Assembly (NCBI GenBank): GCA_016783355.1
Contig: JADHWR010000001.1
Location: 6,072 to 70,071 of the forward strand
Reading direction: 5' to 3'
Origin: Candidatus Omnitrophota bacterium
GTDB taxonomy: Bacteria; Omnitrophota; Gorgyraeia; Gygaellales; JAHJCI01
DNA length: 64,000 nucleotides
The position numbers were made by a program, and so were the translations under genes. Below the pieces are notes generated by a model that was not told the origin of the DNA, did not search any database, and was given only the letters and a program-made list of their open reading frames with translations. Shown piece by piece: positions 4,580 through 58,390 of the stretch (positions are counted from its first letter, which is position 1; every line of letters begins with the position of its first letter).

Positions 4580-7500
4580 CTAAGTTACCTTTTCCATCTG
4601 CGCCTCTCGATGTGCAATAAAGCCGGTTCCTGCAGGAATTAAATGTCCAACAATCACATTTTCCTTCAATCCATATAAAACATCCCGTGCACCACGAGAA
4701 GCAGCATCGGTCAAAACCCGTGTTGTCTCCTGGAAGCTTGCTGCAGAAATAAAGCTATCTGTGCTCAATGATGCCCTGGTAATACCTTGCAACTGTGGTG
4801 TGGCTGAAGCAGGAGTGCCGCCCTTTTTCATCACACGCTCATTCTCGGTTTTAAATCTCAATTTATCCACTAATTCTCCAGGTAAAAATTCTGTATCTCC
4901 AGAGTCTTCTATACGCACTTTCTTCAGAATCTGTCGAATAATCAATTCAACGTGCTTATCACTAATCTGCACCCCTTGTAAACGATAGACTTCCTGAATC
5001 TCATTCAAAAGATACTCTGCAAGTCTTTTGTCTCCACAAATACGCAAGATTTCCTGAAGCACAACTGGTCCATCTGTAAGCTGGTCGCCGGCGCTGACGC
5101 GGTCCCCTTTATAAACGTTGGGGTGCTTACCATGGGGCATAATATACTCACGCTCCATGCCTGTCGGTGAACGGACAATAATTATTCGTTCGCCTTTCTT
5201 GCCTTCTCCAAATTCTACAAATCCATCAATCTCACTAATTATTGCCGGATTCTTTGGTCGGCGTATCTCAAATAATTCGGCAACGCGCGGCAGACCTCCT
5301 GTAATATCATGGGTTTTGGCAATGATGCGTGGGGTCTTCGCTAAACAGGCTCCTGCATTAATCTGCTCGGTATCCTTAACTAAAACATGGGCGCCTACGG
5401 GGAGCGGATAAAGACTGAGCACATCTTCTTTCTCATCTAAAATAACAATCTGAGGATGATATTCTTGTTTATGCTCCATCACTACTCGCTCAGTAACCTT
5501 GGTTACAGGATTAAACTCATCCTCAATACTAACTCCTGGAATTAAATCCTCAAATCTAACCCGGCCAGCTACTTCTGTCAAAATCGGAGAGTTATAAGGA
5601 TCCCAATGGACAAAAGCCATTCCCTTCTCAGTCAAAGTCTTATCAGCAAAAGCAACCAGCCCTCCATAGGGTACGGTATAACGTTCAAGTTCCCGGCCTT
5701 CCTGATCATTAATACTAATTACGCCATTACGATTAAGCACAAGAAATTCTTTGCCCACCCTTACTATTTTTAAGTTATGGTAGGTTAATATGCCTTTGTT
5801 TCTTGATTTTATCGAAGAGCGCTCAATCACACGAGAAGCTGTTCCGCCAATATGAAATGTGCGCATAGTAAGTTGTGTGCCGGGTTCGCCGATACTCTGA
5901 GCAGCAATTATTCCTACTGCCTCGCCTAATTCAACCTGCTTTCCCCGGGCAAGGTCCCGGCCATAACAGGTGGCGCAAATCCCCCTTTCTGCCTCGCAGA
6001 TAAGAACACTGCGTATCCTTATCTTCTCAATACCTAAACGCTCAATAATATCTGCCTTCTCTTCAGTAATCTCTTTGCCTGCCTCAACAATAACCTCATC
6101 AGTAATAATATCAACAATGTTATCGAGGGCAGTCCTTCCCACGATACGCTCGCGAAGAGGTATAACCACCTCATCTCCTTCAATAAGTGCGCTAACTGTA
6201 ATTCCATTAAGTGTACCGCAATCCTTCCTGGTTACAATTATATCCTGAGCAACATCTACCAATCGGCGAGTAAGATATCCTGCATCAGCTGTCTTTAGGG
6301 CTGTATCAGCGAGTCCTTTTCTTGCGCCATGTGTGGAGATAAAATATTCAAGAACGGTTAAACCCTCACGAAAATTTGCTGTAATAGGAGTTTCGATAAT
6401 CTCGCCTGATGGTTTTGCCATCAATCCACGCATTCCGCAAAGCTGCCTCACCTGCAGGCGCGAACCTCTTGCACCAGAATCAGCCATCATAAAGATTGGG
6501 TTAAAGGGTGTCATTTGCGAAAAGAGATAGTCAGTAACCCTATCTGTAGCATGTGTCCAGATATCAACAACACGATTAGATTTTTCTCTCTCTGTAATTA
6601 TGCCGTCTTTATAAAGCGTATCTACTTTGTCAACCTCGTTCTGTGCCTTCTTTATAACCTCTGCTTTTTGTGAGGGAATATGCAAATCCCCAATGGCAAT
6701 CGTGATACCCCCTAAGGTGGCAAATTCAAAGCCTTGTTCTTTTATTTCATCTAACAACTGAATTGTTCGTGCGTGACCAAAGCGTTTGTAGCATTCATCG
6801 ATTATATCGGCAACCAAGAATCTATTTAATTCCCTATTTACAAATCCAAAACCCTCCGGCAGCACTTGATTGAAGATGATTCTTCCCACTGTTGTTGTAA
6901 TTAGCCCTGTTGAGTCTTTAGCCTTTCTCTCATCCAGATCATATACCTTATTGACTTTCGTCTTTATCAATTCATGTAGGTCAATTATCTTATCGTTGTA
7001 CGCAGAGAGTGCCGCCGCAGGCGTGCTAAAGATTAAATCCTTTATCTTGCCGGCAGAGCCTTGCTTGGTAAAATAATTGCAACCCAGAATGATATCCTGT
7101 GTAGGCGATGTAATCGGCCGGCCATTGGCAGGAGAAAACATATTATTAATCGAAAGCATTAAAAGCTTTGCCTCCATCTGTGATTCCAACGACAGGGGGA
7201 CATGCACAGCCATCTGGTCACCATCAAAATCAGCATTAAAAGCGGCACATACCAAGGGATGGATCTTGATTGCCTTGCCCTCAATAAGTCTTGGTTGAAA
7301 TGCCTGCATACTTAAACGATGCAAGGTTGGTGCGCGATTCAAAAGCACGGGATGGTCACTTACAACTTCCTCGAGAATATCCCAAACCTCAACCTTTCCC
7401 CGCTCAACCATTCGGCGTGCCCCCTTAATTGTATGAACAAAGCCTTTCTGGCATAACCTCTTAATAATAAATGGCTCAAATAACTCAACCGCCATCTGCT

Positions 7501-10500: not shown

Positions 10501-11980
10501 TATCCAAGGCAGCATTAGCCTGCGCAATCACCTTTTGCTCATCCAGATCAGCAGTTAGGTATTCAATCTGCTTGGTTGCTTTTGCGTCTTTTACTTTGCG
10601 ATAAGGTGTCTCTAATAAACCGAGGGGGTTAATCCGGGCATATGTAGTCAAGGAAGTAATCAAGCCGATGTTTGGACCCTCGGGGGTTTCTATGGGACAG
10701 AGACGGCCATAATGTGAAGAATGTATATCTCTTACCTCAAAACTGGCGCGCTCGCGCGAGAGGCCACCCGGACCCAAAGCACTCAGCCGGCGTTTATGGG
10801 TTAACTCCGCTAATGGATTTACCTGATCCATAAACTGCGAGAGTTGACCGCGTGTAAAAAAATCATGGATTTGATTGGAAAAAATTTTGAAATTTATGAG
10901 ATGGTAAATGGTTAAGTCTTCTGTCTCGCCCATCAATGTCAATCTTTCTCGAATATTACGTTCAATTCGCGCAAGCCCAATGCGCACCTGATTCTGAGCT
11001 AATTCTGCTACAGTACGTACCCGCCGATTACCCAAATGGTCGATATCATCAATCTTTCCTTTTCCCTCTTTTAAACCGATAAGATAGTTAATAACCTTAA
11101 TTACTGTTTCGTAATCAAGAACTCTTTTATCCAGAGGGGTATCCATTCCTAATTTGCGGTTGAGGATAAATCTGCCGCAGCGACTGAGGTCATACCGGCG
11201 CACATCAAAAAATAAGCGGTAAAATAACTCGGCTGCTGCCTCGGGCGTAACCGGCTCACCCGGCCGCATCTTACGGAAAAAGTCTAATAGAGCTTCTTCT
11301 TTACTCTTTGTGTAATCCCTTTGCAGTGTATTGTTAATTACTGTATTATCTTTTCCAAAAAAACTTTGAATTTCTTCATCAGAGCTTAAACCTAATATAC
11401 GCAGGATCTGTGTGACGGGAAATGTCCGTCGACGATCAATAACTGCCAATATGGCTTCTGAAATATCATATTTAAATTCCAACCATGTTCCCCGATAAGG
11501 AATAATCCTTCCATAAAAAATGCGCTTTCCTGTTATATGCGTTTCCTCTTCAAAAGAAACACCGGGAGAACGATGAAGTTGAAAGATGACAACACGCTCA
11601 TCGCCATTAATAATAAAAGAGGCAGTAGGGGTCATCAAAGGAACCTCACCAAAAAACACATCCTGTTCTAATGTCCTGCTGGCAGAGATAAATCTAAATC
11701 TTACCCATAGTGGTGCAGCATAAGTCATTCCTCTTGTTTTACATTCCTCAATATCATATTTTGGATTACCCAATACATAATTGATAAACTCAAGCCGTAT
11801 GTGCCGGCTCGGTGTTTCAATAGGAAAGAAATTAAGAAACTCTTCCTGTAATCCTGAGCATCGCCTCTCTGAAAAAGGAACATCTTTTTGCAAAAAATCC
11901 TTATAGGCCTTGAGCTGATGCCTCAGAAGATTGGGTACTGAATATACTTCCTTTAGTTTTGCAAAACTCTTTCTCTTCAA
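4580..11980 (-). CDS. rpoBC: fused DNA-directed RNA polymerase beta-beta' subunit (RpoB-RpoC in one 2466-aa ORF)
   Basis: The N-terminal ~1130 aa carry RpoB motifs (GRHGNKG, the [10 protein letters not shown] region, C-terminal [15 protein letters not shown]). The ORF continues without a stop into the RpoC N-terminus ([36 protein letters not shown], zinc motif [21 protein letters not shown]). The junction is near 8545-8600. Confidence 0.9.
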
Positions 11981-12383: not shown

Positions 12384-12397
12384 TTTTTACCCCCTTT

Positions 12398-12492
12398 AAT
12401 GAGTCCGCCAAAGTTCGTTGGCGGACGAATTAATCCCGCTGAGTGTGCCAAAATTATAAAATAGAATTTTGGCACATATTACGAAGCGGGAT
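12398..12492 (-). promoter_or_regulatory. Two-hairpin leader element, copy 1 (rplJ-rplL spacer, ends just before the rplL SD)
   Basis: The minus-strand RNA reads AUCCCGCUUCGUAAUAUGUGCCAAAAUUCUAUUUUAUAAUUUUGGCACACUCAGCGGGAUUAAUUCGUCCGCCAACGAACUUUGGCGGACUCAUU, followed by AAAGGGGG-N7-AUG. The architecture matches 56938-57031 and 62985-63085. Confidence 0.7.
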
Positions 12493-12496
12493 AAGT

Positions 12497-15672: not shown

Positions 15673-16326
15673 TTATTCTAAGGCCTTTAAAAGCTCCTCA
15701 CCGAACTCTTTAGCTGCAAATGGACCAGCGGCAGTAATAATATTGCCATCTCTTACTACAGCTCCCCCTGTATAGTTAGCTCCTGCTTGTTGTAACTTCC
15801 CTGCTTCACTTGACCAAACAGTGGCAGATTTACCTTTAAGTAAGCCTGCCTTCGCCAGGATTACAGGAGCAATACAAATTGCGCCAACGATTTTATTTGC
15901 GGCAGAGGCATCCAATGCAATCTTATGGGCTTTGGCATTATCCCAATAAACGCTTGCACCACTGCCACCTATAAAAACCACAGCATCAAAATCAAAAGGA
16001 CTTAGCTCTTCAATCGTTAAATCAGGCTTTATTTTTGCTCCTAACATGCCCTGGGCATAATCTTGCGTAAAAGCAGCAACCTTAACTTCACAGCCTGCAT
16101 CCTCTAAAACCTGTTTGGGAATAAGTAGCTCTTCATCTCTGAAATTTTTCTGCGCAATAATCATCACTACTTTTTTCATCTCTTGGCCTCCTGCCTGCCC
16201 CGTTAGAAACTTTGTTTTTAACGGGGCCTGCGCCCAAACAACCTTTAAGAAAAAGGCACAAAAAAATCCAACCATTAAGCAAAAAACTGTTGTCCATTTC
16301 TGAAGTAGAACAAGATTCTTATTCAA
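15673..16326 (-). CDS. DJ-1/PfpI family protein (N-terminal hydrophobic extension; alternative start at MKKVVMII)
   Basis: Has the DJ-1 core VMIIAQKNFRDEEL and the nucleophile-elbow-like AICIAP. The N-terminal 50 aa contain the 29-bp TIR element. Confidence 0.8.
   Translation of the reverse strand: MNKNLVLLQKWTTVFCLMVGFFCAFFLKVVWAQAPLKTKFLTGQAGGQEMKKVVMIIAQKNFRDEELLIPKQVLEDAGCEVKVAAFTQDYAQGMLGAKIKPDLTIEELSPFDFDAVVFIGGSGASVYWDNAKAHKIALDASAANKIVGAICIAPVILAKAGLLKGKSATVWSSEAGKLQQAGANYTGGAVVRDGNIITAAGPFAAKEFGEELLKALE
16198..16226. mobile_element. 29-bp minimal TIR element (CCCCGTTAGAAAC-ttt-GTTTTTAACGGGG) flanked by cctg/cctg
   Basis: The sequence reads cctg|ccccgttagaaactttgtttttaacgggg|cctg. 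It translates as PLKTKFLTG inside the DJ-1 ORF. Confidence 0.7.
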
Positions 16327-26267: not shown

Positions 26268-26913
26268 TTAAAACATCCCAAATCATCTTAACCTGTTTTT
26301 TTGTCTCAGATTTCGTCCCACTATTATCAATAACAAAATCAGCTAAATTTAGCTTCTTTTTTAATGGCATCTGCAAATTTATGCGCTTTTTAATTTCCGA
26401 AAGGCAAAATCCCTTTTTTTTAAGGCGCAATTTTTGAATGTCTGACCTTGCCCTTACGGCAATTATCTTATCCACGATTCTCGCCAGTCCTGCTTCGATT
26501 AATAAGGGTGCATCAATTATAATAAACTTAAAATTTCGGGCCTGCTGAATCTGTATTTTAATTTCCTTAATTATTCCTGGATGCAGAATTTCGTTGAGCT
26601 TCTTTAGGGAATGCTTATTTCTGAAAGCACTCTTAGCTAACCTTTTTCGATTAATCTGTTGATTCCTGGAAAGTATCCTTTCCCCAAATGCCGCAAGAAC
26701 CCGCCTGTAAGCCCCGTTCGAAGTAAGGCGCCCAAGGCGACTGCCCCGCCAAATTCCGTGGCGGGGACTTCTAACGGGGTAAGCCTTTTTCTTGGGCTCG
26801 ATTAACTGATGCGCAATCCTATCTGCATCAATAATCTGAGCGCCTAATTGTTTAAAATAGTGCGCGCACGTCGTCTTCCCTGTGCCAAAACTGCCGGTAA
26901 TACCAACAATCAT
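26227..26913 (-). CDS. coaE: dephospho-CoA kinase, carrying a 24-codon element insertion
   Basis: [15 protein letters not shown] has the P-loop at the likely start (26913, an ATGA overlap with the glgA stop). The [11 protein letters not shown] and LHP-type motifs are present. Confidence 0.88.
26712..26779. mobile_element. 68-bp TIR element in frame inside coaE, flanked by taag/taag
   Basis: The sequence reads taag|ccccgttcgaagt aaggcgcccaaggcgactg ccccgccaaattccgtggcgggg acttctaacgggg|taag. It encodes [23 protein letters not shown]. Confidence 0.85.
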
Positions 26914-28295
26914 TTTAAAAGGTGGTGGTAAAGCCCAATATAATTCCGGGCGGCAGTGGTCCAAGAAAAATTACAACCCATACCTCGCTTCATTAAAGAA
27001 AGCCGCCTGTTTTTATCTTTAAAAACTAAAAGCATCTCTTTGATCTTTGCCACGAGGGCCGATGGCGAATACTGATCAAAAATAAAACCATTCTTTTTAT
27101 CAATTGTATCAGTAAGGCCGCCTGTCTTAAAAACCAATGGAATTGTACCATATTTCAGGCTAATCATCTGCCCCAAGCCGCAGGGTTCGTATTTGGAAGG
27201 CATCAGGAATATGTCGCAGCCAGCATATATCTTATGAGCTAATACGTTGTCGAACTTAAGAAAGGTGCGTAACTTTTTAGGAAACTTTCTGGCTAATCTT
27301 TCTAAAATTCGGTGATAATTCAGCTCTCCTGTTCCCAGAATAACCAATTGAAGCGGAAGTGAACATATCTCCTCCATTGCCTCACTTAAGATATCAAAGC
27401 CCTTCTGCTGAGTGAGTCGAGAGACAATACCCAAAAGAGGAATATCGGACCTTGAAGGCAGCTTTGATAATTTGCATAGGGCCTCCTTATTTTTAACTTT
27501 GCCTTCAATATTGTCTTTGTCATAATTCTTGAGAATAAATTTATCGGTCTTTGGATTCCAAAGCTGATAATCTAAACCATTCAATATACCAAATAGATTA
27601 TCTCGCCGCCTGATCAAGACCCCTTCCAAGCCACAACCAAACTCCTTCGTTTGTATTTCTTTGGCATAAGTAGGACTTACTGTATTTATAGCGTCAGAAA
27701 AAACAATCCCGGCCTTTAATAGATTGACCTTACCGTAAAACTCCAATGCCTCCATATTAAAAAGCGACCAATCTAAGCCTAATTTAGGAAATTCCTCTTT
27801 ATTAAATAGTCCCTGATAGGCAAGATTATGAATTGTCAATAGTGTCTTTATTCCTTTATAAAATTCATCACCTTGAGCGGTTGTTTTTAAATATACGGGA
27901 ACAAGCGAACTCTGCCAGTCATGACAATGAAGTATCTGAGGCCTGAATTCTATTTCTTTTAAAAGTTTTAATGCCTCTCGGCAAAAATAAGAGAATCGGT
28001 TGAGATTATCGGGAAAGTCACCTTCTTTTTCTCCGTAGAGTCCTGGGCGATTAAAAAACTCTTCTTTCTTAATAAAATAAACCTTAATCTTTTTTCCTAT
28101 GGTTGTTGTAGAAATTTTCGAATTTAAGTCCTCAATTTTAAATCCTGCTGCCTTTGTCTTTTTGTAAAAGGGCATAATCACGATAATCTCATGTTTTAAT
28201 CTCTCCAAAGGCAAAGGCAGAGCCCCGACTACATCAGCAAGACCGCCGGTCTTGGCAAAAGGCACAACCTCTGATGCAAACATTGCGATTCTCAC
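26910..28295 (-). CDS. glgA: glycogen/starch synthase (ADP-glucose type)
   Basis: 461 aa. MRIAMFASEVVPFAKTGGLADVVGALP is the canonical GlgA N-terminus (KTGGL). Confidence 0.93.
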   Translation of the reverse strand: MRIAMFASEVVPFAKTGGLADVVGALPLPLERLKHEIIVIMPFYKKTKAAGFKIEDLNSKISTTTIGKKIKVYFIKKEEFFNRPGLYGEKEGDFPDNLNRFSYFCREALKLLKEIEFRPQILHCHDWQSSLVPVYLKTTAQGDEFYKGIKTLLTIHNLAYQGLFNKEEFPKLGLDWSLFNMEALEFYGKVNLLKAGIVFSDAINTVSPTYAKEIQTKEFGCGLEGVLIRRRDNLFGILNGLDYQLWNPKTDKFILKNYDKDNIEGKVKNKEALCKLSKLPSRSDIPLLGIVSRLTQQKGFDILSEAMEEICSLPLQLVILGTGELNYHRILERLARKFPKKLRTFLKFDNVLAHKIYAGCDIFLMPSKYEPCGLGQMISLKYGTIPLVFKTGGLTDTIDKKNGFIFDQYSPSALVAKIKEMLLVFKDKNRRLSLMKRGMGCNFSWTTAARNYIGLYHHLLK

Positions 28296-30964
28296 TTAAT
28301 CTCCTCCATCTCTAACCAATTCTTACCCTTCTTTATTACTACCTTTATGGGAACAGAAAGGGCTAAGGCATTCTCCATCTCATAAGATATCATCTCAATT
28401 GCCCTCTGCAATTGCCCGTTCGGTATCTCAAAAATAAGTTCATCGTGAATTTGCAGGAGGAGCTTCGCCGAAAGCGTTCTTTCCTCAATCTTCTGATATA
28501 TCTTAATCATCGCCATCTTAATTAAATCTGCTGCCGAGCCTTGGATGGATGAATTTACTGCCTGCCTTTCGGCAAATGCACGAACTGCGGCATTCTGATG
28601 ATTAATGTCAGGGAGATAGCGATGGCGACCTAAAATAGTTGTTACAAAATTGTCTTTTTTTGCCTTTTCAATCTGCCTGGCGATATAATCTTTTACTCTG
28701 GGATACCTTAAAAAATAGGCATCAATAAAGCGAGTTGCCTCCTCCCTTGAAATTCCTAATTCCCTTGCTAAACCAAAGGAAGATAGACCATAAATAATTC
28801 CAAAATTTATGCGCTTTGCTACTTCTCGCATCTGATCATTGACAATAGAATCCTCTGTGCCATAAACTAAAGAGGCAGTGGCACGATGTATGTCTTTGCC
28901 TTGCGAAAAAGCATCAATCAGCACCTTCTCGCCTGATAAATGTGCCAGAACCCTTAATTCTACCTGAGAATAATCAAAAGAGACCAAAAAATTATCCTCG
29001 CAACTCGTGATGAAAGCCTTTCGTATCTTGCGCCCTAACTCTGTCTTAATCGGTAGATTTTGCAAATTAGGATTAGAGGAGCTCAGTCTTCCCGTCTGTG
29101 TTCCTGTTTGATTGAAGAATGTATGAATGCGCAGGGTTTTTTTATCTGCCAGTTCCATTAAGGCATCGATATAAGTAGATTTTATTTTACAAAGCATACG
29201 ATATTCCAATAAAATTTTTGGTAAGGGATGCTGGCTTGCTAAGACAGCAAGAACCTCCTCATCGGTAGAGGCGCCTGTCTTTTTCTTTTTTATCACCGGC
29301 AGTTTTAATTTCTCAAAAAGAACCTGACGTAGCTGTAAGGGTGAGTTGATATTAAACGGCCCACCAGCAAGATGATAAATTTTACTGACCAGGCCTTTGC
29401 GCTTTTCTTCAATTTCAATGCCCAAGGCTTTAAGAAACTCTAAATCAAGCTTTATACCCTCTAATTCCATCTGCGCTAAAACAGGAATCAAGCGAATCTC
29501 TAAGTCGCAAAAGATGCGAAAGCTATCTTTAAGCTTTAGTTCTTTCTCTAAAACCGACTTAAGTGTTCCAATAACAACACAAACCTCAAGTGGACTTATC
29601 TTTCCTGCCCCGTTCGAAGTCCCCGCCGTAGGCGGGGCAGTCGCCCCGGGCGTCTTACTTCGAACGGGGCCTGCATCCAAAATTCTCTTCAGATAATCCC
29701 AGCACAGGCTCTCAAGACTATAATCAGACCGGGACGGATTCAAAAGATAAGCAGCAATCATCGTATCAAAACCTAACCCTTCTAGGGCGATATTATGCCG
29801 GGCTAATCGCAAAAAGATATCTTTTAGATTGTGGCCGATTTTCTTAATCTTTGGGTCTCTAAGGACAGGTTCAATGCTCTTTAAGGAGCCTTTCTCTAAT
29901 TCTAAAAAAGAATCACTCTCTGGAAGATAAACTGTCAACCCCTCCTCATTCATATAGAGAATCAACTCACCTGCCTGCCTAAACTGATCAATCCCGGCAA
30001 CCTGCCTGTTGGCACTTCGACGGAGTTTATCCCGAGCGAAGTCGAGGGACTCAGTGCTAGCACTCCGACTTCGCTCAGTGCCAACCCTGAGCTTGTCGAA
30101 GGGTTGCTCAGGTAAATCTTTAAGAAATTTTTTAAATTCTAACTCACGAAAGATTTCATAAAGATTTCTATAGTCAGGCTTCTTTATCTTTAAACTTTGC
30201 GCATCAAATTCTATATCTAAATCTGTCCTTAATTGTGCAAGATAATGACATAGTTTTATTTGCTCAATCTTTTCTTTCAAGCGAGAACGAAGCTTTTGTT
30301 CTTTTATCTGATCCAAATTCAATAAGAGATTTTCCAGAGACTTAAATTTATCCAGGAGCTTGGTGGCGGTCTTTTCTCCTATGCCAGGAACACCCGGGAT
30401 ATTATCAGCTGTATCTCCGGCAAGAGCAATAAAGTCAGCAATTCTGCCGGGTAAAAATCCGTATTGGCGCTTAACCCCTGCCACATCATAAATTATCTTT
30501 TTGTCTTTATGAGGATGCAGAACAATAACTCCCTCATCCACTAATTGCAAGATATCCTTATCAGCGCTGACAATCATTATTGTAAAATCCTTCTCTTTTG
30601 CCTTCCTGGTTAATGTCGCAATAACATCGTCTGCTTCAAAGCCCTCCTTCTCAAATATATTAATTCCAAAGGCCTTGATTATCTTTTTAATGTAAGGCAG
30701 TTGAGTCACTAAATCCGCAGGCATAGGAGGACGTTGTATCTTGTAACGCGCAAATTCTTTTTGGCGAAATGTGTGCCTTGAGACATCAAAACATACACCC
30801 ATATACTGCGGATTTATCTCTTTTAAAACCTTATTCAGAAAATTCACAAAGCCATAAATAGCATTGGTACAAAGACCGTAAGAGGTCGCAAGCCCCCTTA
30901 TGGCATAATAGGCGCGGTAACAGATGCCGTTGGCATCAATAAGTACTACTTGGGCTTTATCCAT
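28292..30964 (-). CDS. polA: DNA polymerase I, carrying two different in-frame repeat insertions
   Basis: 890 aa. Has a 5' nuclease domain (GIPGVPGIGEKTA), pol motif A (SFDYSQVELRVLAH), motif B (RR.AK..NFGIIYG) and motif C (QIHDELIFE). Confidence 0.95.
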   Translation of the reverse strand: MDKAQVVLIDANGICYRAYYAIRGLATSYGLCTNAIYGFVNFLNKVLKEINPQYMGVCFDVSRHTFRQKEFARYKIQRPPMPADLVTQLPYIKKIIKAFGINIFEKEGFEADDVIATLTRKAKEKDFTIMIVSADKDILQLVDEGVIVLHPHKDKKIIYDVAGVKRQYGFLPGRIADFIALAGDTADNIPGVPGIGEKTATKLLDKFKSLENLLLNLDQIKEQKLRSRLKEKIEQIKLCHYLAQLRTDLDIEFDAQSLKIKKPDYRNLYEIFRELEFKKFLKDLPEQPFDKLRVGTERSRSASTESLDFARDKLRRSANRQVAGIDQFRQAGELILYMNEEGLTVYLPESDSFLELEKGSLKSIEPVLRDPKIKKIGHNLKDIFLRLARHNIALEGLGFDTMIAAYLLNPSRSDYSLESLCWDYLKRILDAGPVRSKTPGATAPPTAGTSNGAGKISPLEVCVVIGTLKSVLEKELKLKDSFRIFCDLEIRLIPVLAQMELEGIKLDLEFLKALGIEIEEKRKGLVSKIYHLAGGPFNINSPLQLRQVLFEKLKLPVIKKKKTGASTDEEVLAVLASQHPLPKILLEYRMLCKIKSTYIDALMELADKKTLRIHTFFNQTGTQTGRLSSSNPNLQNLPIKTELGRKIRKAFITSCEDNFLVSFDYSQVELRVLAHLSGEKVLIDAFSQGKDIHRATASLVYGTEDSIVNDQMREVAKRINFGIIYGLSSFGLARELGISREEATRFIDAYFLRYPRVKDYIARQIEKAKKDNFVTTILGRHRYLPDINHQNAAVRAFAERQAVNSSIQGSAADLIKMAMIKIYQKIEERTLSAKLLLQIHDELIFEIPNGQLQRAIEMISYEMENALALSVPIKVVIKKGKNWLEMEEIK
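29608..29669. mobile_element. 62-bp TIR element in frame inside polA, flanked by cctg/cctg
   Basis: The sequence reads cctg|ccccgttcgaagt ccccgccgtaggcgggg cagtcgccccgggcgtctt acttcgaacgggg|cctg. It encodes PVRSKTPGATAPPTAGTSNGA. Confidence 0.85.
30011..30108. repeat. Palindromic 'FDKLRV'-type repeat inserted in frame in polA
   Basis: It contains gagcgaagtcg...agtgctagcact...cgacttcgctc and accctgagcttgtcgaaggg. The same words occur in the tandem arrays at 31007-31200. It encodes PFDKLRVGTERSRSASTESLDFARDKLRRS. Confidence 0.75.
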
Positions 30965-31006: not shown

Positions 31007-31071
31007 CCTCGACTTCGTCCCTCGACTTCGTCCCTCGACTTCGTCCCTCGACTTCGTCCCTCGACTTCGCT
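31007..31071. repeat. 13-bp tandem repeat x5 (cctcgacttcgtc)
   Basis: Four perfect copies plus one variant, read directly from the sequence. Confidence 0.9.
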
Positions 31072-31200
31072 CGGGACGACCCTGAGCTTGTCGAAGGGTC
31101 GCTCGGGACGACCCTGAGCTTGTCGAAGGGTCGCTCGGGACGACCCTGAGCTTGTTGTCGAAGGGTCGCTCAGTGTCAATCCTGAGCTTGTCGAACGGAT
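31072..31200. repeat. 32-bp tandem repeat x3 plus a partial copy (cgggacgaccctgagcttgtcgaagggtcgct); each unit has a GACCCT...AGGGTC hairpin
   Basis: Units lie at 31072, 31104 and 31136 (the third has a 3-bp tgt insertion). A partial copy follows as cctgagcttgtcgaacgg. Confidence 0.9.
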
Positions 31201-31207: not shown

Positions 31208-32152
31208 TTAGTTTTTAGGGGTTAATTCCGTGGCTATCTTTTCTAAAGTCTGCTTTGCAGTTACAATATCATCCTGCTCATAGAATCTGATCGCATCTTG
31301 AAACTTGGCCTGCATAATAGCGATGTGTTCTTGTTTTTGTTTTTCTTTAATCTCTTTATTTATTTTATCTATTAAGGTCAAAAATGAGTCTCTGTCTGAC
31401 GGGTCCAAAGAAATGGCTAACACCAGTGCATTTTTTGCTTCCTCTATTTTGTGCTCTTCATATAAATCATCAGCCAGTTCCTTAAGTTTTTGAATCTCTT
31501 TTAACTCTGTTAATCTGACTGCCTTTTTATGAATGGCGAGCTCACGCACTAAACTAAGCGTCTCTTCCTCTATCAACTCCTGCTGAAGAGAAGGCTGAGT
31601 CTCTGCGATGGCCTGGCGTCTGCGTTTCGCCCACTCCACCCAAGACTCACCGGGAATTCCCAATTCTATACGTTTTTTCCAATAATCAAAAGCCTTCTTT
31701 AGTTCTCTTTTTTGCTCATAAAGCATAGCTAAATTTGAATATAAATTATGATACTGGGGATTTAATTTTAGTCCAACTAAATAAATCTTCTCTGCCCTAT
31801 CAAGTAAACCCTTGGCCTCAAACATAATTCCTAAATCATTGTAAGCAATAACATAAGCAGGGTCTAACTCAATTGCCTTCTGATAACAGACTGTGGCACT
31901 ATCTAAATCACCGCGCTGCTGAAACTGCAAACCTTGACTTCGAAGAAGACGTGCCTCTTTTTGAAAAGTAGTTTGTTTCTGCGCAAAAAGTGAGGTTGGG
32001 AAACAGAATAAGTTAATTGTTATAAATAAATTAATTGCTACAAAAGAGATAATTCCCTTTGTAAACCCCGTTCGAAATTCCTCCAATCTTTGCTTAAGGC
32101 TTAATGATACATAAGTAGCCGAGGCTTTTGAATCTATCTTAAATCTATGCAT
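31208..32152 (-). CDS. TPR-repeat protein with signal-peptide-like N-terminus; current start codon lies inside a TIR element
   Basis: TPR-like repeats (A...Y.KAIELDP..., NLG..FE..G....A...Y...L.L.P). The hydrophobic segment IISFVAINLFITINLFCFPTSLFA follows. Confidence 0.75.
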   Translation of the reverse strand: MHRFKIDSKASATYVSLSLKQRLEEFRTGFTKGIISFVAINLFITINLFCFPTSLFAQKQTTFQKEARLLRSQGLQFQQRGDLDSATVCYQKAIELDPAYVIAYNDLGIMFEAKGLLDRAEKIYLVGLKLNPQYHNLYSNLAMLYEQKRELKKAFDYWKKRIELGIPGESWVEWAKRRRQAIAETQPSLQQELIEEETLSLVRELAIHKKAVRLTELKEIQKLKELADDLYEEHKIEEAKNALVLAISLDPSDRDSFLTLIDKINKEIKEKQKQEHIAIMQAKFQDAIRFYEQDDIVTAKQTLEKIATELTPKN

Positions 32153-32171
32153 ATCTAAATTTCGAACGGGG
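32066..32171. mobile_element. 106-bp TIR element (no ORF of its own) inserted in the 5' end of the TPR gene, flanked by taaa/taaa
   Basis: The sequence reads taaa|ccccgttcgaaat...80 bp...atttcgaacgggg|taaa. It supplies the ATG (32152) and the first 29 codons of the present TPR ORF. Confidence 0.85.
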
Positions 32172-32433
32172 TAAACCCCGTTCGAAATAGGAAACGCTTT
32201 AATCTATCGTTCAAATAGCGTTTACCCTTTCCAGACTTCAGGTGTTTTTCTCTACTCATTGCATCATATTTATTTAGACAGGCTTCATAATAAATAAGCT
32301 TAAAGGGGCCTCTATTCTTAGTAGAAGACACCTTTCCTGAATTATGCTCACTAAAGCGTTTCCGTAAATCATTCGTTAAGCCTGTATACCATTTTTTATC
32401 TTTCTGGCTTTGAATTACATAAACATAATGCAT
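32155..32433 (-). CDS. small GIY-YIG nuclease family protein (YhbQ/UPF0213-like)
   Basis: 92 aa. MHYVYVIQS....WYTGLTNDL.KR..EHN.GK matches the GIY...YIG-type motifs (YVY / WYTG), a conserved Arg and E..HN. The C-terminal FRTGFTPFEI is encoded by the TIR junction. Confidence 0.85.
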   Translation of the reverse strand: MHYVYVIQSQKDKKWYTGLTNDLRKRFSEHNSGKVSSTKNRGPFKLIYYEACLNKYDAMSREKHLKSGKGKRYLNDRLKRFLFRTGFTPFEI

Positions 32434-32454
32434 TGCTTGTTATTTCGAACGGGG
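32176..32454. mobile_element. 279-bp TIR element whose cargo is the complete GIY-YIG gene, flanked by taaa/taaa
   Basis: The sequence reads taaa|ccccgttcgaaat...253 bp...atttcgaacgggg|taaa. The 13-bp TIR is perfect. The GIY-YIG ATG sits 8 nt inside the right TIR. Confidence 0.85.
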
Positions 32455-38377: not shown

Positions 38378-39148
38378 TTACACACTAAAAAGATCTGGTC
38401 TTTTCTTCTTTGTTACTTTAATTGCTTGTTTTCTTCTCCATTCTTCTATTTTCTTATGATTGCCGGATAAAAGAACAGAGGGTACCTTCATTCCCCTGTA
38501 ATCCGCTGGACGCGTATATTGTTCGTATTCTAACAAGTTATCTTTAAATGACTCGATTTGCAAGGATTTTTTTTCTCCGAGAACCCCAGGAATAAGTCTA
38601 ATTACACAATCGATAACAACCATAGCCGGAAGCTCTCCACCAGTAAGAACGTAATCTCCAATAGAAATTTCAAAATCCACTAAATATCTTCTTACACGCT
38701 CATCAATTCCCTCATAATGCCCGCAGATTAAAATCAGATGTTTGTATTTTGCCAATCTCTGGGCAATCTTTTGGTTTAATCTCATACCCTGTGGGCTTAA
38801 TAAAATAATCTTTCCCCGGCTTCGGCGGGATCCCACTTTAGCAAGAGACCTTTGACCTTTGCTTGCCCCGTAGGCCCTGCCTTTTTCAGAAAAAGCGCGG
38901 GGTCCTTCGGGGAGCTTTGAGATTATGTCTCTAATTGCATTGAAAATGGGCTCCGGTCCTAAAATCATCCCTGGACCGCCGCCAAAAGGCCGATCATCGA
39001 CCTTGCGATGTTTATCAGGAGAATAATCTCTAAGATTATGTACATTTATCATAATCTTTCTTTTCTCTCTGGCGCGCTTAATAATTGACTCATTTAAAAC
39101 AGCATCAAACATCTCGGGAAATATTGTCAGGATATCAATACGCATCAT
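38378..39148 (-). CDS. trmD: tRNA (guanine37-N1)-methyltransferase TrmD, with a ~25-30-aa GC-rich insert
   Basis: Has MRIDILTIFPEMF, DDRPFGGGPGM, CGHYEGIDERV and IGDYVLTGGELPAMV. The extra segment PEGPRAFSEKGRAYGASKGQRSLAKVGSRRSRG precedes KIILLSPQG. Confidence 0.93.
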   Translation of the reverse strand: MMRIDILTIFPEMFDAVLNESIIKRAREKRKIMINVHNLRDYSPDKHRKVDDRPFGGGPGMILGPEPIFNAIRDIISKLPEGPRAFSEKGRAYGASKGQRSLAKVGSRRSRGKIILLSPQGMRLNQKIAQRLAKYKHLILICGHYEGIDERVRRYLVDFEISIGDYVLTGGELPAMVVIDCVIRLIPGVLGEKKSLQIESFKDNLLEYEQYTRPADYRGMKVPSVLLSGNHKKIEEWRRKQAIKVTKKKRPDLFSV

Positions 39149-39282: not shown

Positions 39283-40440
<1,158 letters not shown>

Positions 40441-43287: not shown

Positions 43288-45378
43288 CTATAGTTTTCTT
43301 GCTATCTTCTCAATTTTATAGCCTTCCATTATATCGCCTATTTTATAATCAGAAAAATTACCTATGGATATGCCGCACTCATAACCTTCAGATACCTGAG
43401 AAACCTCATCTTTAAAACGCCGAAGATTGCTAATCTTTCCGCTAAAGATAGTAGTGTTGTCTCTGATTATATCTATATTGAGCGTGCGCAAGATCTTACC
43501 CTTAGTTATAGTACACCCCGCCACAACACCACTTCGCGAGAGATTAAAAACCTGCTTCACGCGTGCCTGTCCAAAAGATACCTTTTTTATCTTTGGGCTT
43601 AACAACCCTTCTAAAGCCGCCTTTATCTCCTCGACTAATTCATAAATTATATTGTATGTCCTTACCTCCACCTGCTCTTTTTTAATTAATTCCTTTGCTC
43701 GCTCTTCTATATTTATATGAAAACCCAAGATTAGCGCATCAGAGACAGACGCCAGCATTACATCTGAAGTGTTAATTAAGCCCACTCCTTTATGGGTTAT
43801 CTTAAATTTTACCTCTTTTGTCTCTAATTTTATTAGAGAATCCCGCACCGCCTCTAATGAGCCGAATGTGTCTGCTTTAATAATAATCTTCAGCTCTTTA
43901 AGAACACCGTTTTTTATTTCCTGATGTAAATCCTCCAGCGAAAACCGATGTGGTGAAATATTCCTTTTTTCCTTTGTCTCGCGCAGCGAGATAAGTGCTC
44001 TTGCCCCTTTCTCGTCCTTGACAACAAAAAATCTCTCTCCTGCCTCAGGCACGGATTCAAAACCTAAAATTCCCACAGGCTGACTGGCAGTAGCTTCCTC
44101 AACTCTCTGGCCACAGTCATTAAATATTGCCTTTACCTTTGCTAAGTTCTTCCCCGCAACAAGTAGATCATTAAGATGTAATTTTCCATTCTGCACCAAT
44201 AAAGTTGCCAGAGGACCCCTGTTTGGGTCCTGTCTTGCCTCAATAACAACACCCCTTGCTATCTGATTATAATCTGCTTTCAATTCTAACATTTCTGCCT
44301 CTAAAAGAATCATCTCTAATAATTCATCTATGCCCTGACCGGTTTTGGCAGAAACCTCTACCGTTACGGTCTTGCCTTGCCACTCCTCAGGAACTAAACC
44401 AATATCAGCAAGTTGCTTCTTTACCCTATCTACGTTAGCCTGAACTCGATCAACTTTATTTATGGCGACAATTATAGGAACCTCAGCATCTCGGGCATGG
44501 TTAATTGCCTCAATTGTCTGAGGCATAACACCATCATCAGCAGCAACCACTAAAACAACAATATCTGTAATCTGTGCGCCCCGTGCACGCATTGCCGTAA
44601 ATGCCTCATGACCGGGTGTATCCAAAAATGCAATCTTACCCTTATCTAAATTAACCTCATATGCACCGATGTGCTGGGTTATGCCTCCATGTTCAAAATC
44701 AACGACCTTTGTCTTTCTAATCATATCCAAAAGGGAGGTCTTACCATGGTCAACATGACCCATAAATGTTACTACGGGTGGACGAACATTTAAATCCTGA
44801 GGCTGGCTTGATACCTCATGTAAGGAAAGCAGGCGTTCTTCTAAAGAGGGAGCCTGCTTGACTTTAAAGCCAAAATTCTCACAAACCTGCTCTACTTCAT
44901 CTTTTCCTAAAGATTGGTTAATGTTGGCTAGGATTTTTAACTTTAAAAGTTCCTGCATTAGCTGCGAGAGTTTAATTTGAAGCTTAACCGCTAAATTCTT
45001 AACAGAAATAGGGAAATCTAATTCTAATACCTTAGCTTGTGGCGCCTCTTCAACCAAAATTGCTTGTAGCTGCTGGGGTTGAGGCTCTAAGGTCTTTGCT
45101 TGAATTTTAGACTTGCGGGAGACTCTTCTCTTTGGTTTAGGGGCTATTTCTTTCCTCTTGATTTGCTTTTTGCCTGGCTCTTTTCGTAGGACCGCAGGCT
45201 TTTTTGCTTTCCTTGCCCCGTTTGAAATCCCTCGCCTAACGGCGGGGGCAGCTACCTTTGGTGTCTTACTTCGAACGGGGTTTGGCTTTGTAGAGGAAGC
45301 CCTTAAGCGAGTCTTTGAAGCCTTTCTCACTTTAGTTTTTAATGCTTTTGGTTTCTTAGGTTTTTTTATCTTTTTCAT
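43288..45378 (-). CDS. infB: translation initiation factor IF-2, carrying a 23-codon element insertion in the basic N-terminal region
   Basis: 696 aa. Has the G domain [21 protein letters not shown] and NKVD. Confidence 0.94.
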   Translation of the reverse strand: MKKIKKPKKPKALKTKVRKASKTRLRASSTKPNPVRSKTPKVAAPAVRRGISNGARKAKKPAVLRKEPGKKQIKRKEIAPKPKRRVSRKSKIQAKTLEPQPQQLQAILVEEAPQAKVLELDFPISVKNLAVKLQIKLSQLMQELLKLKILANINQSLGKDEVEQVCENFGFKVKQAPSLEERLLSLHEVSSQPQDLNVRPPVVTFMGHVDHGKTSLLDMIRKTKVVDFEHGGITQHIGAYEVNLDKGKIAFLDTPGHEAFTAMRARGAQITDIVVLVVAADDGVMPQTIEAINHARDAEVPIIVAINKVDRVQANVDRVKKQLADIGLVPEEWQGKTVTVEVSAKTGQGIDELLEMILLEAEMLELKADYNQIARGVVIEARQDPNRGPLATLLVQNGKLHLNDLLVAGKNLAKVKAIFNDCGQRVEEATASQPVGILGFESVPEAGERFFVVKDEKGARALISLRETKEKRNISPHRFSLEDLHQEIKNGVLKELKIIIKADTFGSLEAVRDSLIKLETKEVKFKITHKGVGLINTSDVMLASVSDALILGFHINIEERAKELIKKEQVEVRTYNIIYELVEEIKAALEGLLSPKIKKVSFGQARVKQVFNLSRSGVVAGCTITKGKILRTLNIDIIRDNTTIFSGKISNLRRFKDEVSQVSEGYECGISIGNFSDYKIGDIMEGYKIEKIARKL
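45216..45280. mobile_element. 65-bp TIR element in frame inside infB (flanks cttg / tttg)
   Basis: The sequence reads cttg|ccccgtttgaaat ccctcgcctaacggcggggg cagctacctttggtgtctt acttcgaacgggg|tttg. It encodes PVRSKTPKVAAPAVRRGISNGA. Confidence 0.8.
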
Positions 45379-46637: not shown

Positions 46638-46797
46638 GTCGCCACAAAAACGTTGACGACCCGCCAAAGTATTGTGGCGGGATTTGCACCAGAAAGTCGC
46701 CACAAAGCGTTGGCGACCCGCCAAAGTATTATGGCGGGATTTGCACCAGAAAGTCGCCACAAAGCGTTGGCGACCCGCCAAAGTATTATGGCGGGAT
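46638..46797. repeat. 57/58-bp tandem repeat x3, each unit made of two hairpins (GTCGCCA-N8-TGGCGAC and CCGCCA-N8-TGGCGG), in the rimP-nusA spacer
   Basis: Units start at 46638, 46696 and 46753. Further CCGCCAA...TTGGCGG hairpins follow to about 46850. One inverted copy lies at 63563-63607. Confidence 0.9.
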
Positions 46798-46853
46798 TGG
46801 CGCATCCGCCGGTTCTTATTGGAGGCGAATCCGCCAATTATTTTGGCGGAAGC

Positions 46854-56922: not shown

Positions 56923-56937
56923 CGCTCCTACCTCCTC

Positions 56938-58388: not shown

Positions 58389-58390
58389 TG

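What the first reader, a model, noticed from the sequence alone, without database searches (positions are those of the whole stretch)
29604..29673. 62-bp element adds 22 codons inside DNA polymerase I, with a perfect cctg duplication
The sequence reads cctg|CCCCGTTCGAAGT CCCCGCCGTAGGCGGGG cagtcgccccgggcgtctt ACTTCGAACGGGG|cctg. It encodes GPVRSKTPGATAPPTAGTSNGAG within the region between the 5' nuclease and polymerase domains. The orientation and reading frame match the infB copy, giving closely similar peptides (PVRSKTPGATAPP.. versus PVRSKTPKVAAPA..).
Basis: seen in the sequence. Interest (0 to 1): 0.6.

Follow-up and report, generated by a model that had tools for sequence, protein, structure and literature searches.

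The report
Tiny mobile hairpin inside DNA polymerase I
A 62-bp hairpin-forming mobile DNA element has jumped into the DNA polymerase I gene of an Omnitrophota bacterium, adding 22 amino acids without breaking the gene, and it shares its ends with a 279-bp element nearby that encodes only a small GIY-YIG nuclease.

Summary
Window 29608-29669 is a 62-bp element with perfect 13-bp terminal inverted repeats, flanked by a perfect cctg direct repeat. It sits in frame (66 bp, 22 codons) in an intact 890-aa polA.

All 20 Omnitrophota PolA orthologs aligned lack the segment. Three of them carry peptide inserts with the same signature (PVR...SNG) at other PolA positions. For one, an empty/filled DNA pair shows a 62-bp insertion plus a 4-bp duplication.

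The window holds seven family members. Five lie in frame in housekeeping genes (PolA, IF-2, CoaE, TGT, DJ-1). One is a 279-bp element whose only gene is an 86-92-aa GIY-YIG nuclease bounded by the same repeats.

In 71 of 81 nuclease copies examined (80 species genomes plus the window; Patescibacteria, Omnitrophota, Planctomycetota, Woesearchaeota and others) the gene is bounded by (C/T)CCCGTTAGAGA repeats. In 31 of those the 4-bp flanks are perfect direct repeats.

Best reading: a miniature inverted-repeat element (MITE) derived from a minimal GIY-YIG element. That element resembles the Ssn nuclease/hairpin-repeat system published in 2025, and the in-frame behaviour resembles Rickettsia palindromic elements. 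That the nuclease drives mobility is inferred, not shown. I rate it a new variant of known kinds, moderately interesting.

The parts
29604..29607 (.). Left copy of the 4-bp target-site duplication (cctg)
   Evidence: It is identical to 29670-29673. Removing the element and one copy restores GAT GCA GGA AAG (D-A-G-K) in polA.
29608..29669 (.). 62-bp MITE (the finding): terminal repeat, inner GC hairpin, spacer, terminal repeat
   Evidence: It aligns over its full length with the IF-2 and CoaE copies and with MITEs in L081 and L084.
29608..29620 (.). Left terminal inverted repeat CCCCGTTCGAAGT
   Evidence: It differs at 1 of 13 positions from the repeat of the window's GIY-YIG element. None of the 70 other loci has a closer repeat.
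29621..29637 (.). Inner hairpin CCCCGCC-gta-GGCGGGG
   Evidence: The fold shows a three-way junction. The hairpin is conserved in the CoaE and IF-2 copies.
29657..29669 (.). Right terminal inverted repeat ACTTCGAACGGGG
29670..29673 (.). Right copy of the 4-bp target-site duplication (cctg)
28292..30964 (-). Host gene polA (890 aa, intact)
   Evidence: Pfam finds the 5'-nuclease, exonuclease-like and family A polymerase domains. It is 100% identical to an NCBI Omnitrophica MAG protein. In the AlphaFold model the insert falls in a coil with pLDDT below 50, residues 427-455.
32176..32454 (-). 279-bp element bounded by CCCCGTTCGAAAT repeats and taaa direct repeats; its only gene is a GIY-YIG nuclease. 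Putative autonomous parent.
   Evidence: Pfam PF01541, E = 3e-19. The same architecture appears in 71 of 81 nuclease copies examined, 80 genome loci plus the window.
32155..32433 (-). GIY-YIG nuclease ORF (92 aa). Its last conserved core codons are encoded by the element's own terminal repeat, and the ORF reads on into the neighbouring MITE.
32066..32171 (.). 106-bp family member abutting the GIY-YIG element and sharing the 4-bp taaa. It supplies the annotated start of the TPR gene.
26712..26779 (.). 68-bp copy in frame in coaE (duplication taag; 24 codons; opposite orientation)
   Evidence: The Pfam CoaE match is split into two stretches.
45216..45280 (.). 65-bp copy in frame in infB (flanks cttg/tttg; 23 codons; same orientation as the polA copy)
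39867..39895 (.). 29-bp minimal hairpin copy in frame in tgt (flanks cttg/tttg; 11 codons)
16198..16226 (.). 29-bp minimal hairpin copy in frame in a DJ-1/PfpI gene (duplication cctg; 11 codons)

Best explanation
The 62-bp segment is a non-autonomous miniature inverted-repeat element (MITE). It inserted into polA, duplicated the 4-bp target cctg, and survives because it is harmless there. Element plus duplication is a multiple of three, the frame in use has no stop codon, and the 22 residues (rich in Pro, Gly, Ser, Thr and Ala) sit in a disordered surface loop of the apparently vestigial 3'-5' exonuclease-like domain.

Its parent is a family of about 279-bp elements. Each consists of the same 12-13-bp terminal inverted repeats around a single gene for an 86-aa single-domain GIY-YIG nuclease. 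One copy lies 2.5 kb away, at 32176-32454.

Shown here:
- insertion relative to orthologs;
- a 4-bp target duplication, proved on an empty/filled pair for a same-subfamily 62-bp copy in another genome;
- multi-copy status;
- terminal repeats shared and co-varying with the genome's own nuclease element;
- conservation of the repeat-nuclease-repeat unit across phyla;
- purifying selection on the nuclease;
- the frame filter: all intragenic copies are 3n long.

Inferred: the nuclease mobilises both kinds of element in trans. By analogy with Ssn nucleases (Chenal et al. 2025, PMC11893778), it would recognise the hairpin that the terminal repeats form in single-stranded DNA and cut at its base. How the excised piece is then pasted with a 4-bp duplication is unknown. 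Translation of the insert is assumed, not tested.
For: - **Insertion.** All 20 Omnitrophota PolA orthologs (54-57% identical) lack the 22 residues. P0073, P0071 and P0089 carry peptide inserts with the same signature (PVR...SNG) at other PolA positions. DNA-level elements were located for P0073 and P0089, but not for P0071.
- **Empty/filled proof.** P0073 and P0008 are about 93% identical apart from one 22-aa gap. At DNA level the empty site reads GGAAGGTAAAGCTGG and the filled site reads GGAAGGTAAA + 62 bp + TAAAGCTGG. The L081 element aligns with the window copies over its full length.
- **Copy number.** There are seven family elements in 64 kb. The terminal-repeat 13-mer occurs 12 times against 0.85 expected.
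- **Frame filter.** All 12 copies internal to long ORFs (window plus loci) have (length + 4) divisible by 3. Intergenic copies show no such constraint.
- **Nuclease element.** Pfam identifies a GIY-YIG domain. In 71 of the 81 nuclease copies examined, the gene lies between (C/T)CCCGTTAGAGA repeats in an element with a median length of 278 bp. Repeat positions 1 and 13 vary in step on both arms.
- **Direct flank repeats.** 31 of 71 elements have perfect 4-bp direct flank repeats, against 1 of 255 in a shifted control.
- **Co-variation.** MITE terminal repeats are closer to the nuclease element of their own genome than to those of other genomes (Hamming distance 1.68 vs 2.43, Wilcoxon p = 0.001). 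For the polA copy the distance is 1, and no other locus is closer.
- **Selection on the nuclease.** Median synonymous difference is 0.75 (saturated) and median non-synonymous difference is 0.20. Identity is 65-79% across phyla.
- **Tolerance in PolA.** AlphaFold gives mean pLDDT 81.9, and the insert falls in a coil below 50 (residues 427-455) between helices 417-429 and 458-478.
- **Published analogy.** Small single-domain GIY-YIG nucleases flanked by multi-copy hairpin repeats cut ssDNA next to those hairpins (PMC11893778).
Against: - No enzyme with known strand-transfer activity is encoded, and GIY-YIG nucleases are not known transposases.
- 40 of the 71 nuclease elements lack perfect direct flank repeats.
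- Two window copies share the same imperfect flank pair (cttg/tttg). Simple target duplication followed by random decay does not predict this.
- The published SRM search motif gives no hit in the window.
- Membership of this nuclease clade in CDD cd10448 (the Ssn family) could not be tested.
- No empty site exists for the window's own polA copy, because the nearest ortholog is only about 55% identical.
- Retention of the 22 residues in mRNA and protein is untested.
Confidence: 0.8

Rival explanations
1. It is a genuine MITE insertion, but an unrelated transposase encoded elsewhere in the genome mobilises it. The GIY-YIG gene is then either a passenger inside one copy or a domesticated, Ssn-like host nuclease that merely binds these hairpins, as RAYT relates to REP.
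For: - A 4-bp duplication plus terminal inverted repeats is typical of DDE transposons (established knowledge).
- GIY-YIG enzymes are nucleases without known strand-transfer activity.
- Chenal et al. themselves suggest domestication.
- Only 64 kb of this genome was seen.
Against: - In 71 of 81 nuclease copies examined, across many phyla, the gene is packed tightly between the repeats, and its last conserved codons are encoded by the repeat itself.
- The nuclease is under strong purifying selection and spreads across phyla at 65-79% identity.
- MITE repeats co-vary with those of the genome's own nuclease element.
- None of the roughly 40 window ORFs scanned against Pfam (about two thirds of the genes) is a transposase.
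Confidence: 0.17
2. The inserts are kept because they do something useful. They could act as recognition sites that let an Ssn-like nuclease restrict recombination or transformation near these genes, as mRNA hairpins that tune translation, or as a new functional loop in PolA.
For: - In Neisseria, NTS repeats modulate transformation through SsnA.
- The hairpin is very stable.
- Several essential genes carry copies.
Against: - Orthologs lack the insert, and other lineages carry inserts at different PolA sites, which points to chance insertion rather than a conserved role.
- The insert is predicted to be disordered.
- Neisseria NTS repeats are rarely inside genes (2%).
- Copy sequences drift; the copies show 76% mean column identity.
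Confidence: 0.08
3. The segment is removed after transcription or translation (intron-like or intein-like), so PolA protein lacks it.
For: The window does hold a true group I intron elsewhere.
Against: - No Rfam family matches at the element.
- At 62 bp it is far too small for a self-splicing intron or an intein.
- No intein domain is found in PolA.
- All intragenic copies obey the multiple-of-three, stop-free rule. That rule is only needed if they are translated.
Confidence: 0.02
4. The segment is an assembly artefact, or an ancestral PolA segment lost in other lineages.
For: This is a metagenome-assembled genome, and reads were not available.
Against: - The same protein is on record from three contig records.
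- Seven family copies with clean 4-bp flanks lie in one contig.
- A same-subfamily MITE, also 62 bp, shows an empty/filled pair in another genome.
- All 20 orthologs lack the segment.
Confidence: 0.01

Closest known systems
Ssn nucleases and their Ssn-related hairpin repeats (NTS/SRM), Chenal et al., Nat Commun 2025 (PMC11893778)
   Same: - A roughly 90-aa single-domain GIY-YIG protein.
- Its gene is flanked on both sides by hairpin-forming repeats that also occur many times elsewhere in the genome.
- The authors noted that the repeat-gene-repeat layout looks like an insertion sequence.
   Different: - The repeat sequence is unrelated: CCCCGTT(A/C)GA(A/G)A arms, against the published SRM motif, which gives 0 hits in the window.
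- Here each flank is one arm of a single long inverted repeat, so the gene sits in the loop. There are 4-bp direct repeats outside the arms and a proven insertion event for a derived MITE.
- Copies are common inside genes, whereas NTS repeats are in genes only 2% of the time.
- The hosts are Omnitrophota, Patescibacteria and DPANN archaea, which that study does not mention.
- cd10448 membership and ssDNA cleavage were not tested.
Rickettsia palindromic elements (RPEs; Ogata et al. 2000, summarised in PMC10969869)
   Same: Palindromic repeats that insert in frame into unrelated housekeeping genes and add a peptide segment compatible with the protein fold.
   Different: - RPEs are about 100-150 bp, are found in Rickettsia, and the sources read here name no parent element.
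- This family is 29-106 bp, has clear terminal repeats, a 4-bp duplication and a candidate parent gene, and is found in Omnitrophota and other phyla.
- Sequence relatedness was not tested.
REP sequences and REP-associated tyrosine transposases (RAYT, 'REPtron'), and IS200/IS605
   Same: A small nuclease gene flanked by the same hairpin repeats that are scattered through the genome. Single-stranded hairpin recognition is the likely mode of action.
   Different: - The enzyme is a GIY-YIG nuclease, not a Y1 HuH transposase.
- REPs are extragenic.
- IS200/IS605 make no target duplication and have no terminal inverted repeats (established knowledge).
Classical bacterial MITEs (for example Correia, ERIC, RUP; review PMC10969869)
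   Same: Short, with terminal inverted repeats and a target-site duplication, multi-copy and non-coding for an enzyme. Occasional in-frame insertions are known.
   Different: Their parents are DDE-transposase insertion sequences. Here the only candidate parent encodes a lone 86-aa GIY-YIG nuclease and is itself only about 279 bp.

Membership tests
MITE | Short element without a transposase gene | tested here: met
   The element is 62 bp and has no ORF of its own.
MITE | Terminal inverted repeats | tested here: met
   The arms are 13-14 nt and 100% complementary.
MITE | Target-site duplication created on insertion | tested here: met
   The polA copy has perfect cctg/cctg flanks. An empty/filled DNA pair for a same-subfamily 62-bp MITE in L081/L085 shows one TAAA becoming two.
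MITE | Multiple dispersed copies in the genome | tested here: met
   Seven copies lie in 64 kb, with 12 arm matches against 0.85 expected.
MITE | A longer autonomous element with the same ends that encodes the mobilising enzyme | tested here: inconclusive
   The 279-bp element at 32176-32454 has the same ends (12 of 13 nt) and encodes a GIY-YIG nuclease. Whether that nuclease mobilises anything was not tested.
Ssn nuclease / SRM repeat system (Chenal 2025) | Single-domain GIY-YIG protein of about 90 aa | tested here: met
   PF01541 covers residues 1-71 of 92, and no other domain is found. The conserved core is 86 aa.
Ssn nuclease / SRM repeat system (Chenal 2025) | Belongs to CDD cd10448, or is homologous to N. 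meningitidis SsnA at E < 1e-10 | not testable with these tools
   Neither CDD nor the SsnA sequence was available. NCBIfam gave no family above its cut-off. PDB hits were UPF0213 proteins only. Cluster names were uninformative.
Ssn nuclease / SRM repeat system (Chenal 2025) | Gene flanked on both sides by hairpin-forming repeats that are multi-copy in the genome | tested here: met
   Shown in the window and in 71 of the 81 nuclease copies examined.
Ssn nuclease / SRM repeat system (Chenal 2025) | Repeats match the published SRM motif HGTCWYN(0-2)YYVSBRHN(0-5)WNVSBRGN(0-2)RNCYNB | tested here: not met
   There are 0 matches in the window on either strand.
Ssn nuclease / SRM repeat system (Chenal 2025) | Site-specific cleavage of single-stranded DNA next to the hairpin | not testable with these tools
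   This needs biochemistry.
Rickettsia palindromic elements | Palindromic repeat inserted in frame in housekeeping genes, translated as a tolerated segment | tested here: met
   Five in-frame copies in the window and others in the loci are all 3n long and stop-free. The insert is modelled as a disordered loop. Translation itself was not tested.
Rickettsia palindromic elements | Sequence family and size of RPE-1 to RPE-10 (about 100-150 bp, Rickettsia) | not tested
   No RPE sequences were compared. Size (29-106 bp) and host differ.
REP/RAYT or IS200/IS605 | Y1 HuH transposase flanked by the repeats | tested here: not met
   The flanked gene is a GIY-YIG nuclease.
Self-splicing intron or intein | Catalytic RNA fold or intein splicing domain | tested here: not met
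   Rfam gives no match at the element. Pfam finds no intein domain in PolA.

The most novel reading that the evidence does not exclude
The roughly 279-bp repeat-nuclease-repeat unit is a previously unrecognised class of autonomous prokaryotic transposon whose only protein is an 86-aa GIY-YIG (Ssn-like) single-strand nuclease. As far as I know that would make it the smallest self-mobilising DNA element in bacteria and archaea, and the first insertion-sequence-like family built on a GIY-YIG enzyme. It would spread across Patescibacteria, Omnitrophota, Planctomycetota, DPANN archaea and others, and seed MITEs that rewrite loops of essential proteins such as PolA, IF-2, CoaE, TGT and glycogen synthase. 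It would also give the Ssn family a primary biological role: its own mobility.
Probability: 0.35. Interest if true: 0.85.

Novelty: new variant of a known kind. Interest (0 to 1): 0.6.

Why it matters
In-frame selfish DNA in essential genes has been a curiosity mostly confined to Rickettsia. Here the same behaviour appears in Omnitrophota and Patescibacteria. In those small genomes the inserts inflate and diversify core proteins, and they confound orthology and annotation.

More importantly, the copies point to a candidate parent that is extraordinarily small: 279 bp and one 86-aa nuclease. That parent is conserved across phyla and bounded by co-varying inverted repeats. Its derived MITEs have a demonstrated 4-bp target duplication.

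This turns an open question from the 2025 Ssn paper into a directly testable hypothesis. The paper asked what these nucleases do outside Neisseria and whether repeat-gene-repeat units are mobile.

If the nuclease does drive mobility, it defines a new enzymatic route to transposition. It would also provide a set of compact, hairpin-guided ssDNA nucleases with known cognate sites.

Tried and rejected
- **Published SRM regex on the window:** 0 hits, so the repeats are not SRM by sequence.
- **NCBIfam scan of the nuclease:** only a sub-threshold group I intron endonuclease hit.
- **PDB profile search:** only the UPF0213 NMR structures 1ZG2 and 1YWL. This cannot place the clade in cd10448 as against cd10456.
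- **tblastn against plasmids:** only distant (32-46% identical) UPF0213/YazA-like genes.
- **Viral contigs:** no relative of the nuclease, so there is no evidence for phage carriage.
- **Representative-library profile search:** 3,450 clusters at E <= 1e-10. The library carries no names, and a look-up of ten distant representatives gave only 'Patescibacteria' or 'putative endonuclease'. No bridge to Neisseria SsnA could be made.
- **Metagenome scan for the exact TTCGAAGT-type MITE:** one hit only, an intergenic 56-bp copy with TCAA duplication. This precise variant is rare.
- **Literature searches:** searches for GIY-YIG plus MITE, transposase, Omnitrophota or Patescibacteria found no description of this element family. 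The only related mention is horizontal transfer of a GIY-YIG gene from Patescibacteria.
- **Rfam:** nothing at the element.
- **Empty site for the window's own polA copy:** not attempted by DNA search, because the closest PolA in 5.8 billion proteins is about 55% identical.
- **Pfam scan of about 40 of the window's ORFs:** no transposase. The remaining ORFs, including 53453-55030 and 57117-62358, were not scanned.
Full report
**1. The observation**

Window 29604-29673 reads cctg | CCCCGTTCGAAGT CCCCGCCGTAGGCGGGG CAGTCGCCCCGGGCGTCTT ACTTCGAACGGGG | cctg. The outer arms are 100% complementary. As single-stranded DNA the 70 nt fold into a three-way junction at -30.3 kcal/mol, against -13.9 +/- 2.0 for shuffles (z = -8.3).

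The segment lies in the minus-strand ORF 28292..30964. This is an intact 890-aa DNA polymerase I with 5'-nuclease, exonuclease-like and family A polymerase domains. It encodes ..LDAG-PVRSKTPGATAPPTAGTSNGAG-KISPL... The 62 bp plus the 4-bp repeat make 66 bp, or 22 codons. Removing the element and one repeat restores D-A-G-K.

The terminal 13-mer, allowing up to 2 mismatches, occurs 12 times in the window against 0.85 expected.

**2. It is an insertion**

The protein is 100% identical to a 'Candidatus Omnitrophica' MAG protein. The next-best PolA sequences are 51-55% identical by BLASTP and about 845 aa long.

In an alignment with 20 of them, none has the 22 residues. Three orthologs carry peptide inserts with the same signature at other PolA positions: P0073 NPVRSKTPKVPVASLMQTSNGV, P0071 NPVRSRALEVTAPLLEGTSNGV and P0089 NPVRNTKTLREESKISNGA. 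At DNA level I located the elements for P0073 and P0089, but my finder did not detect one in the P0071 polA.

P0073 has a close relative without the insert. P0008 is about 93% identical to it, apart from a single 22-aa gap. At DNA level the empty site reads GGAAGGTAAAGCTGG. The filled site reads GGAAGGTAAA + 62 bp (CCCCGTTAGGAG...CTTCTAACGGGG) + TAAAGCTGG. This is a clean insertion with a 4-bp target duplication.

That element aligns over its whole length with the window's polA, infB and coaE copies. The same loci hold further copies with perfect 4-bp flanks: upstream of, inside and downstream of polA, and inside glycogen synthase (TAAA, CAAA, TGAA, TTAA).

**3. The family in the window**

A palindrome-aware scan finds seven members:

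| Coordinates | Length | Location | 4-bp flanks |
|---|---|---|---|
| 16198-16226 | 29 bp | DJ-1/PfpI | cctg / cctg |
| 26712-26779 | 68 bp | CoaE | taag / taag |
| 29608-29669 | 62 bp | PolA | cctg / cctg |
| 32066-32171 | 106 bp | 5' end of a TPR gene | taaa / taaa |
| 32176-32454 | 279 bp | carries the GIY-YIG gene | taaa / taaa |
| 39867-39895 | 29 bp | TGT | cttg / tttg |
| 45216-45280 | 65 bp | IF-2 | cttg / tttg |

Every copy internal to a gene has (length + 4) divisible by three. Across the window and 80 other loci this holds for 12 of 12 copies inside long ORFs, while intergenic copies show no constraint. That is the signature of random insertion followed by selection against frameshifts and stop codons.

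Two of the three reading frames through the terminal repeats are open. They give the recurrent peptides xPVR(S/N)...SNGx and xTPLE...SLTGx.

**4. The candidate parent**

The 279-bp member contains one ORF (32155..32433, minus strand). It is a single-domain GIY-YIG nuclease (PF01541, E = 3e-19).

Its homologs are 65-79% identical across Omnitrophota, many Patescibacteria lineages, Planctomycetota, Desulfobacterota, Nitrospirota, Bdellovibrionales, Clostridia and a Woesearchaeota archaeon. Synonymous sites are saturated (median pS 0.75) while non-synonymous differences are low (median pN 0.20). The protein is therefore under strong purifying selection and has evidently moved between phyla.

Of 81 nuclease copies examined (80 species-representative genome loci plus the window), 71 are bounded by (C/T)CCCGTTAGAGA(N)...(N)TCTCTAACGGG(G/A), in an element with a median length of 278 bp. 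Three features point to a cis-acting role for the repeat:
- The non-coding 5' arm is as conserved as the 3' arm.
- Repeat positions 1 and 13 vary in step on both arms.
- The last conserved codons (..L-T-G) are encoded by the 3' arm, and the stop codon often comes from the flank.

Thirty-one of the 71 have perfect 4-bp direct repeats outside the arms, against 1 of 255 in a shifted control. Examples that cannot be read as an extended palindrome include CTGG, TACG, TTTG, TGAG and TGTA.

MITE arms resemble the nuclease element of their own genome more than those of other genomes (Hamming distance 1.68 vs 2.43, p = 0.001). The polA copy carries the rare TTCGAA variant, one mismatch from the window's nuclease element, and none of the 70 other loci is closer.

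**5. How it probably works**

Shown: mobility of the MITEs with a 4-bp duplication; shared, co-varying ends with a nuclease-only element; a frame filter in coding regions.

Inferred: the nuclease acts in trans on any DNA bounded by the repeats. The closest characterised proteins are the Ssn nucleases (Chenal et al. 2025, PMC11893778). These are roughly 94-aa single-domain GIY-YIG enzymes whose genes are flanked by multi-copy hairpin repeats. They bind the hairpin and cut only single-stranded DNA beside it. The authors noted the insertion-sequence-like layout and the REP/RAYT analogy.

In single-stranded form the terminal repeats of the present elements pair. This brings both element ends and the 4-nt flanks together at the stem base, a natural substrate for such an enzyme.

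The pasting step is unknown. Three observations do not fit a simple cut-and-paste picture:
- No strand-transfer enzyme is encoded.
- 40 of the 71 nuclease elements lack perfect flank repeats, although their flanks still follow a T-N-A-A-like consensus.
- Two window copies share the identical imperfect pair cttg/tttg.

The last point hints at strong target preference or at flank carry-over by microhomology.

**6. Why PolA tolerates it**

In an AlphaFold model (mean pLDDT 81.9) the insert falls in a coil with pLDDT below 50 (residues 427-455), between helices 417-429 and 458-478. That loop varies in sequence among the orthologs.

The domain appears to lack the Exo I D-x-E motif. This is my reading against the E. 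coli Klenow motifs as I recall them, so it is an inference. If so, the domain is probably a vestigial proofreading domain, as in Taq polymerase.

**7. Alternatives**

- **An unseen conventional transposase** could mobilise the MITEs, with the nuclease as passenger or domesticated partner. The tight, pan-phylum packaging of the gene between the repeats argues against a passenger but does not exclude domestication. None of the roughly 40 window ORFs scanned against Pfam is a transposase, but that covers only about two thirds of the genes in 64 kb.
- **A host function** for the hairpins is possible, but variable insertion sites and absence in orthologs do not support it.
- **Intron- or intein-like removal** is very unlikely.
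- **Artefact or ancestry** is effectively excluded.

**8. Comparison with what is known**

The behaviour matches Rickettsia palindromic elements (in-frame palindromic inserts in housekeeping genes; PMC10969869). It also matches classical MITEs on all four sequence-level features tested.

The parent resembles the Ssn/SRM system in architecture. It fails the published SRM sequence motif, and its CDD family could not be determined. It is not a REP/RAYT or IS200/IS605 element.

I found no paper describing this repeat family, its 4-bp duplication, or its in-frame spread in Omnitrophota or Patescibacteria. The library does not cover all journals.

**9. Verdict**

It is best classed as a new variant of known kinds: a MITE with RPE-like in-frame behaviour, derived from a minimal Ssn-like GIY-YIG element.

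The ordinary part, a MITE in a gene, is solid. The interesting part, a 279-bp nuclease-only element as the mobile parent, is well supported as an association but unproven as a mechanism.

Noticed in passing
window 30010-30110 (in polA) and 31007-31198 (upstream of polA): polA carries a second, unrelated palindromic repeat. Its peptide is ..FDKLRVGTERSRSASTESLDFARDKLRRSA.., its ssDNA fold is -25.7 kcal/mol (z = -4), and it falls in the region with AlphaFold pLDDT below 50 (residues 287-322). Parts of it recur in tandem arrays just upstream of polA: a 13-bp unit about five times and a 32-bp unit about four times.
   Followed up: partly
window 63300-63735 (minus strand): A group I intron (Rfam RF00028, 88 bits, 63384-63707) appears to interrupt the anticodon loop of a tRNA gene that ARAGORN does not call, next to tRNA-Leu and tRNA-Gly. 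This is my reading of the flanking sequence, not a computed call. The intron itself contains a copy (63565-63607) of the 57-nt hairpin repeat that is tandemly triplicated at 46647-46817.
   Followed up: partly
window 12390-12496, 56930-57036, 62977-63087: A further intergenic hairpin-repeat family (GAGTCCGCC..GGCGGAC core) has three copies, two of them 100% identical over 69 nt. Its relation to the GIY-YIG elements or to SRM repeats is unknown.
   Followed up: no
window 4580-11980 (minus strand): rpoB and rpoC form a single fused 2466-aa ORF, with Rpb2 domains followed by Rpb1 domains in one protein.
   Followed up: no
loci L007, L020, L022, L038, L046, L056, L059, L061, L062, L069, L073, L078 (around the nuclease gene): In many Patescibacteria the nuclease element sits directly after an ATGAA motif that looks like a host start codon..ATGAA|TCCCGTTAGAGA...TCTCTAACGGGA|TGAA... 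The element's last base plus the duplicated TGAA would rebuild the ATG downstream, and TGA stops the nuclease ORF. Host gene starts were not verified. Some nuclease ORFs begin at the duplicated upstream ATG, giving N-termini such as MNPVRE...
   Followed up: partly
window 32066-32171 and TPR gene 31208..32152: The 106-bp family member supplies the annotated ATG and roughly the first 28 codons of the TPR protein. It is separated from the nuclease element only by the shared 4-bp taaa. Such tandem pairs with a 4-bp spacer recur in other loci: L012, L021, L022, L031, L034, L056 and L057.
   Followed up: partly
window 39867-39895 and 45216-45280; 16198-16226 and 29608-29669: Two independent copies share the same imperfect flank pair cttg/tttg, and two others share cctg/cctg. 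De novo duplication followed by random decay does not predict this.
   Followed up: no
window 38812-38913 (in trmD, ORF 38378..39148): TrmD has an extra segment of about 30 aa (PEGPRAFSEKGRAYGASKGQRSLAKVGSRRSRG) that splits the Pfam match. The DNA is GC-rich and contains cttgCCCCGTAGG...CCTTCGGGG, possibly a decayed family copy. The repeat finder reports no clean palindrome.
   Followed up: partly
representative-library hits P0258 (600 aa), P0248 (237 aa), P0253 (223 aa): Some representatives of the nuclease family are much longer than 86 aa, with the nuclease at the N-terminus. This suggests read-through fusions with host genes.
   Followed up: no
L083 1735-5532: The CODH/ACS alpha subunit of a related Omnitrophota genome carries an intein with a LAGLIDADG domain.
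   Followed up: no
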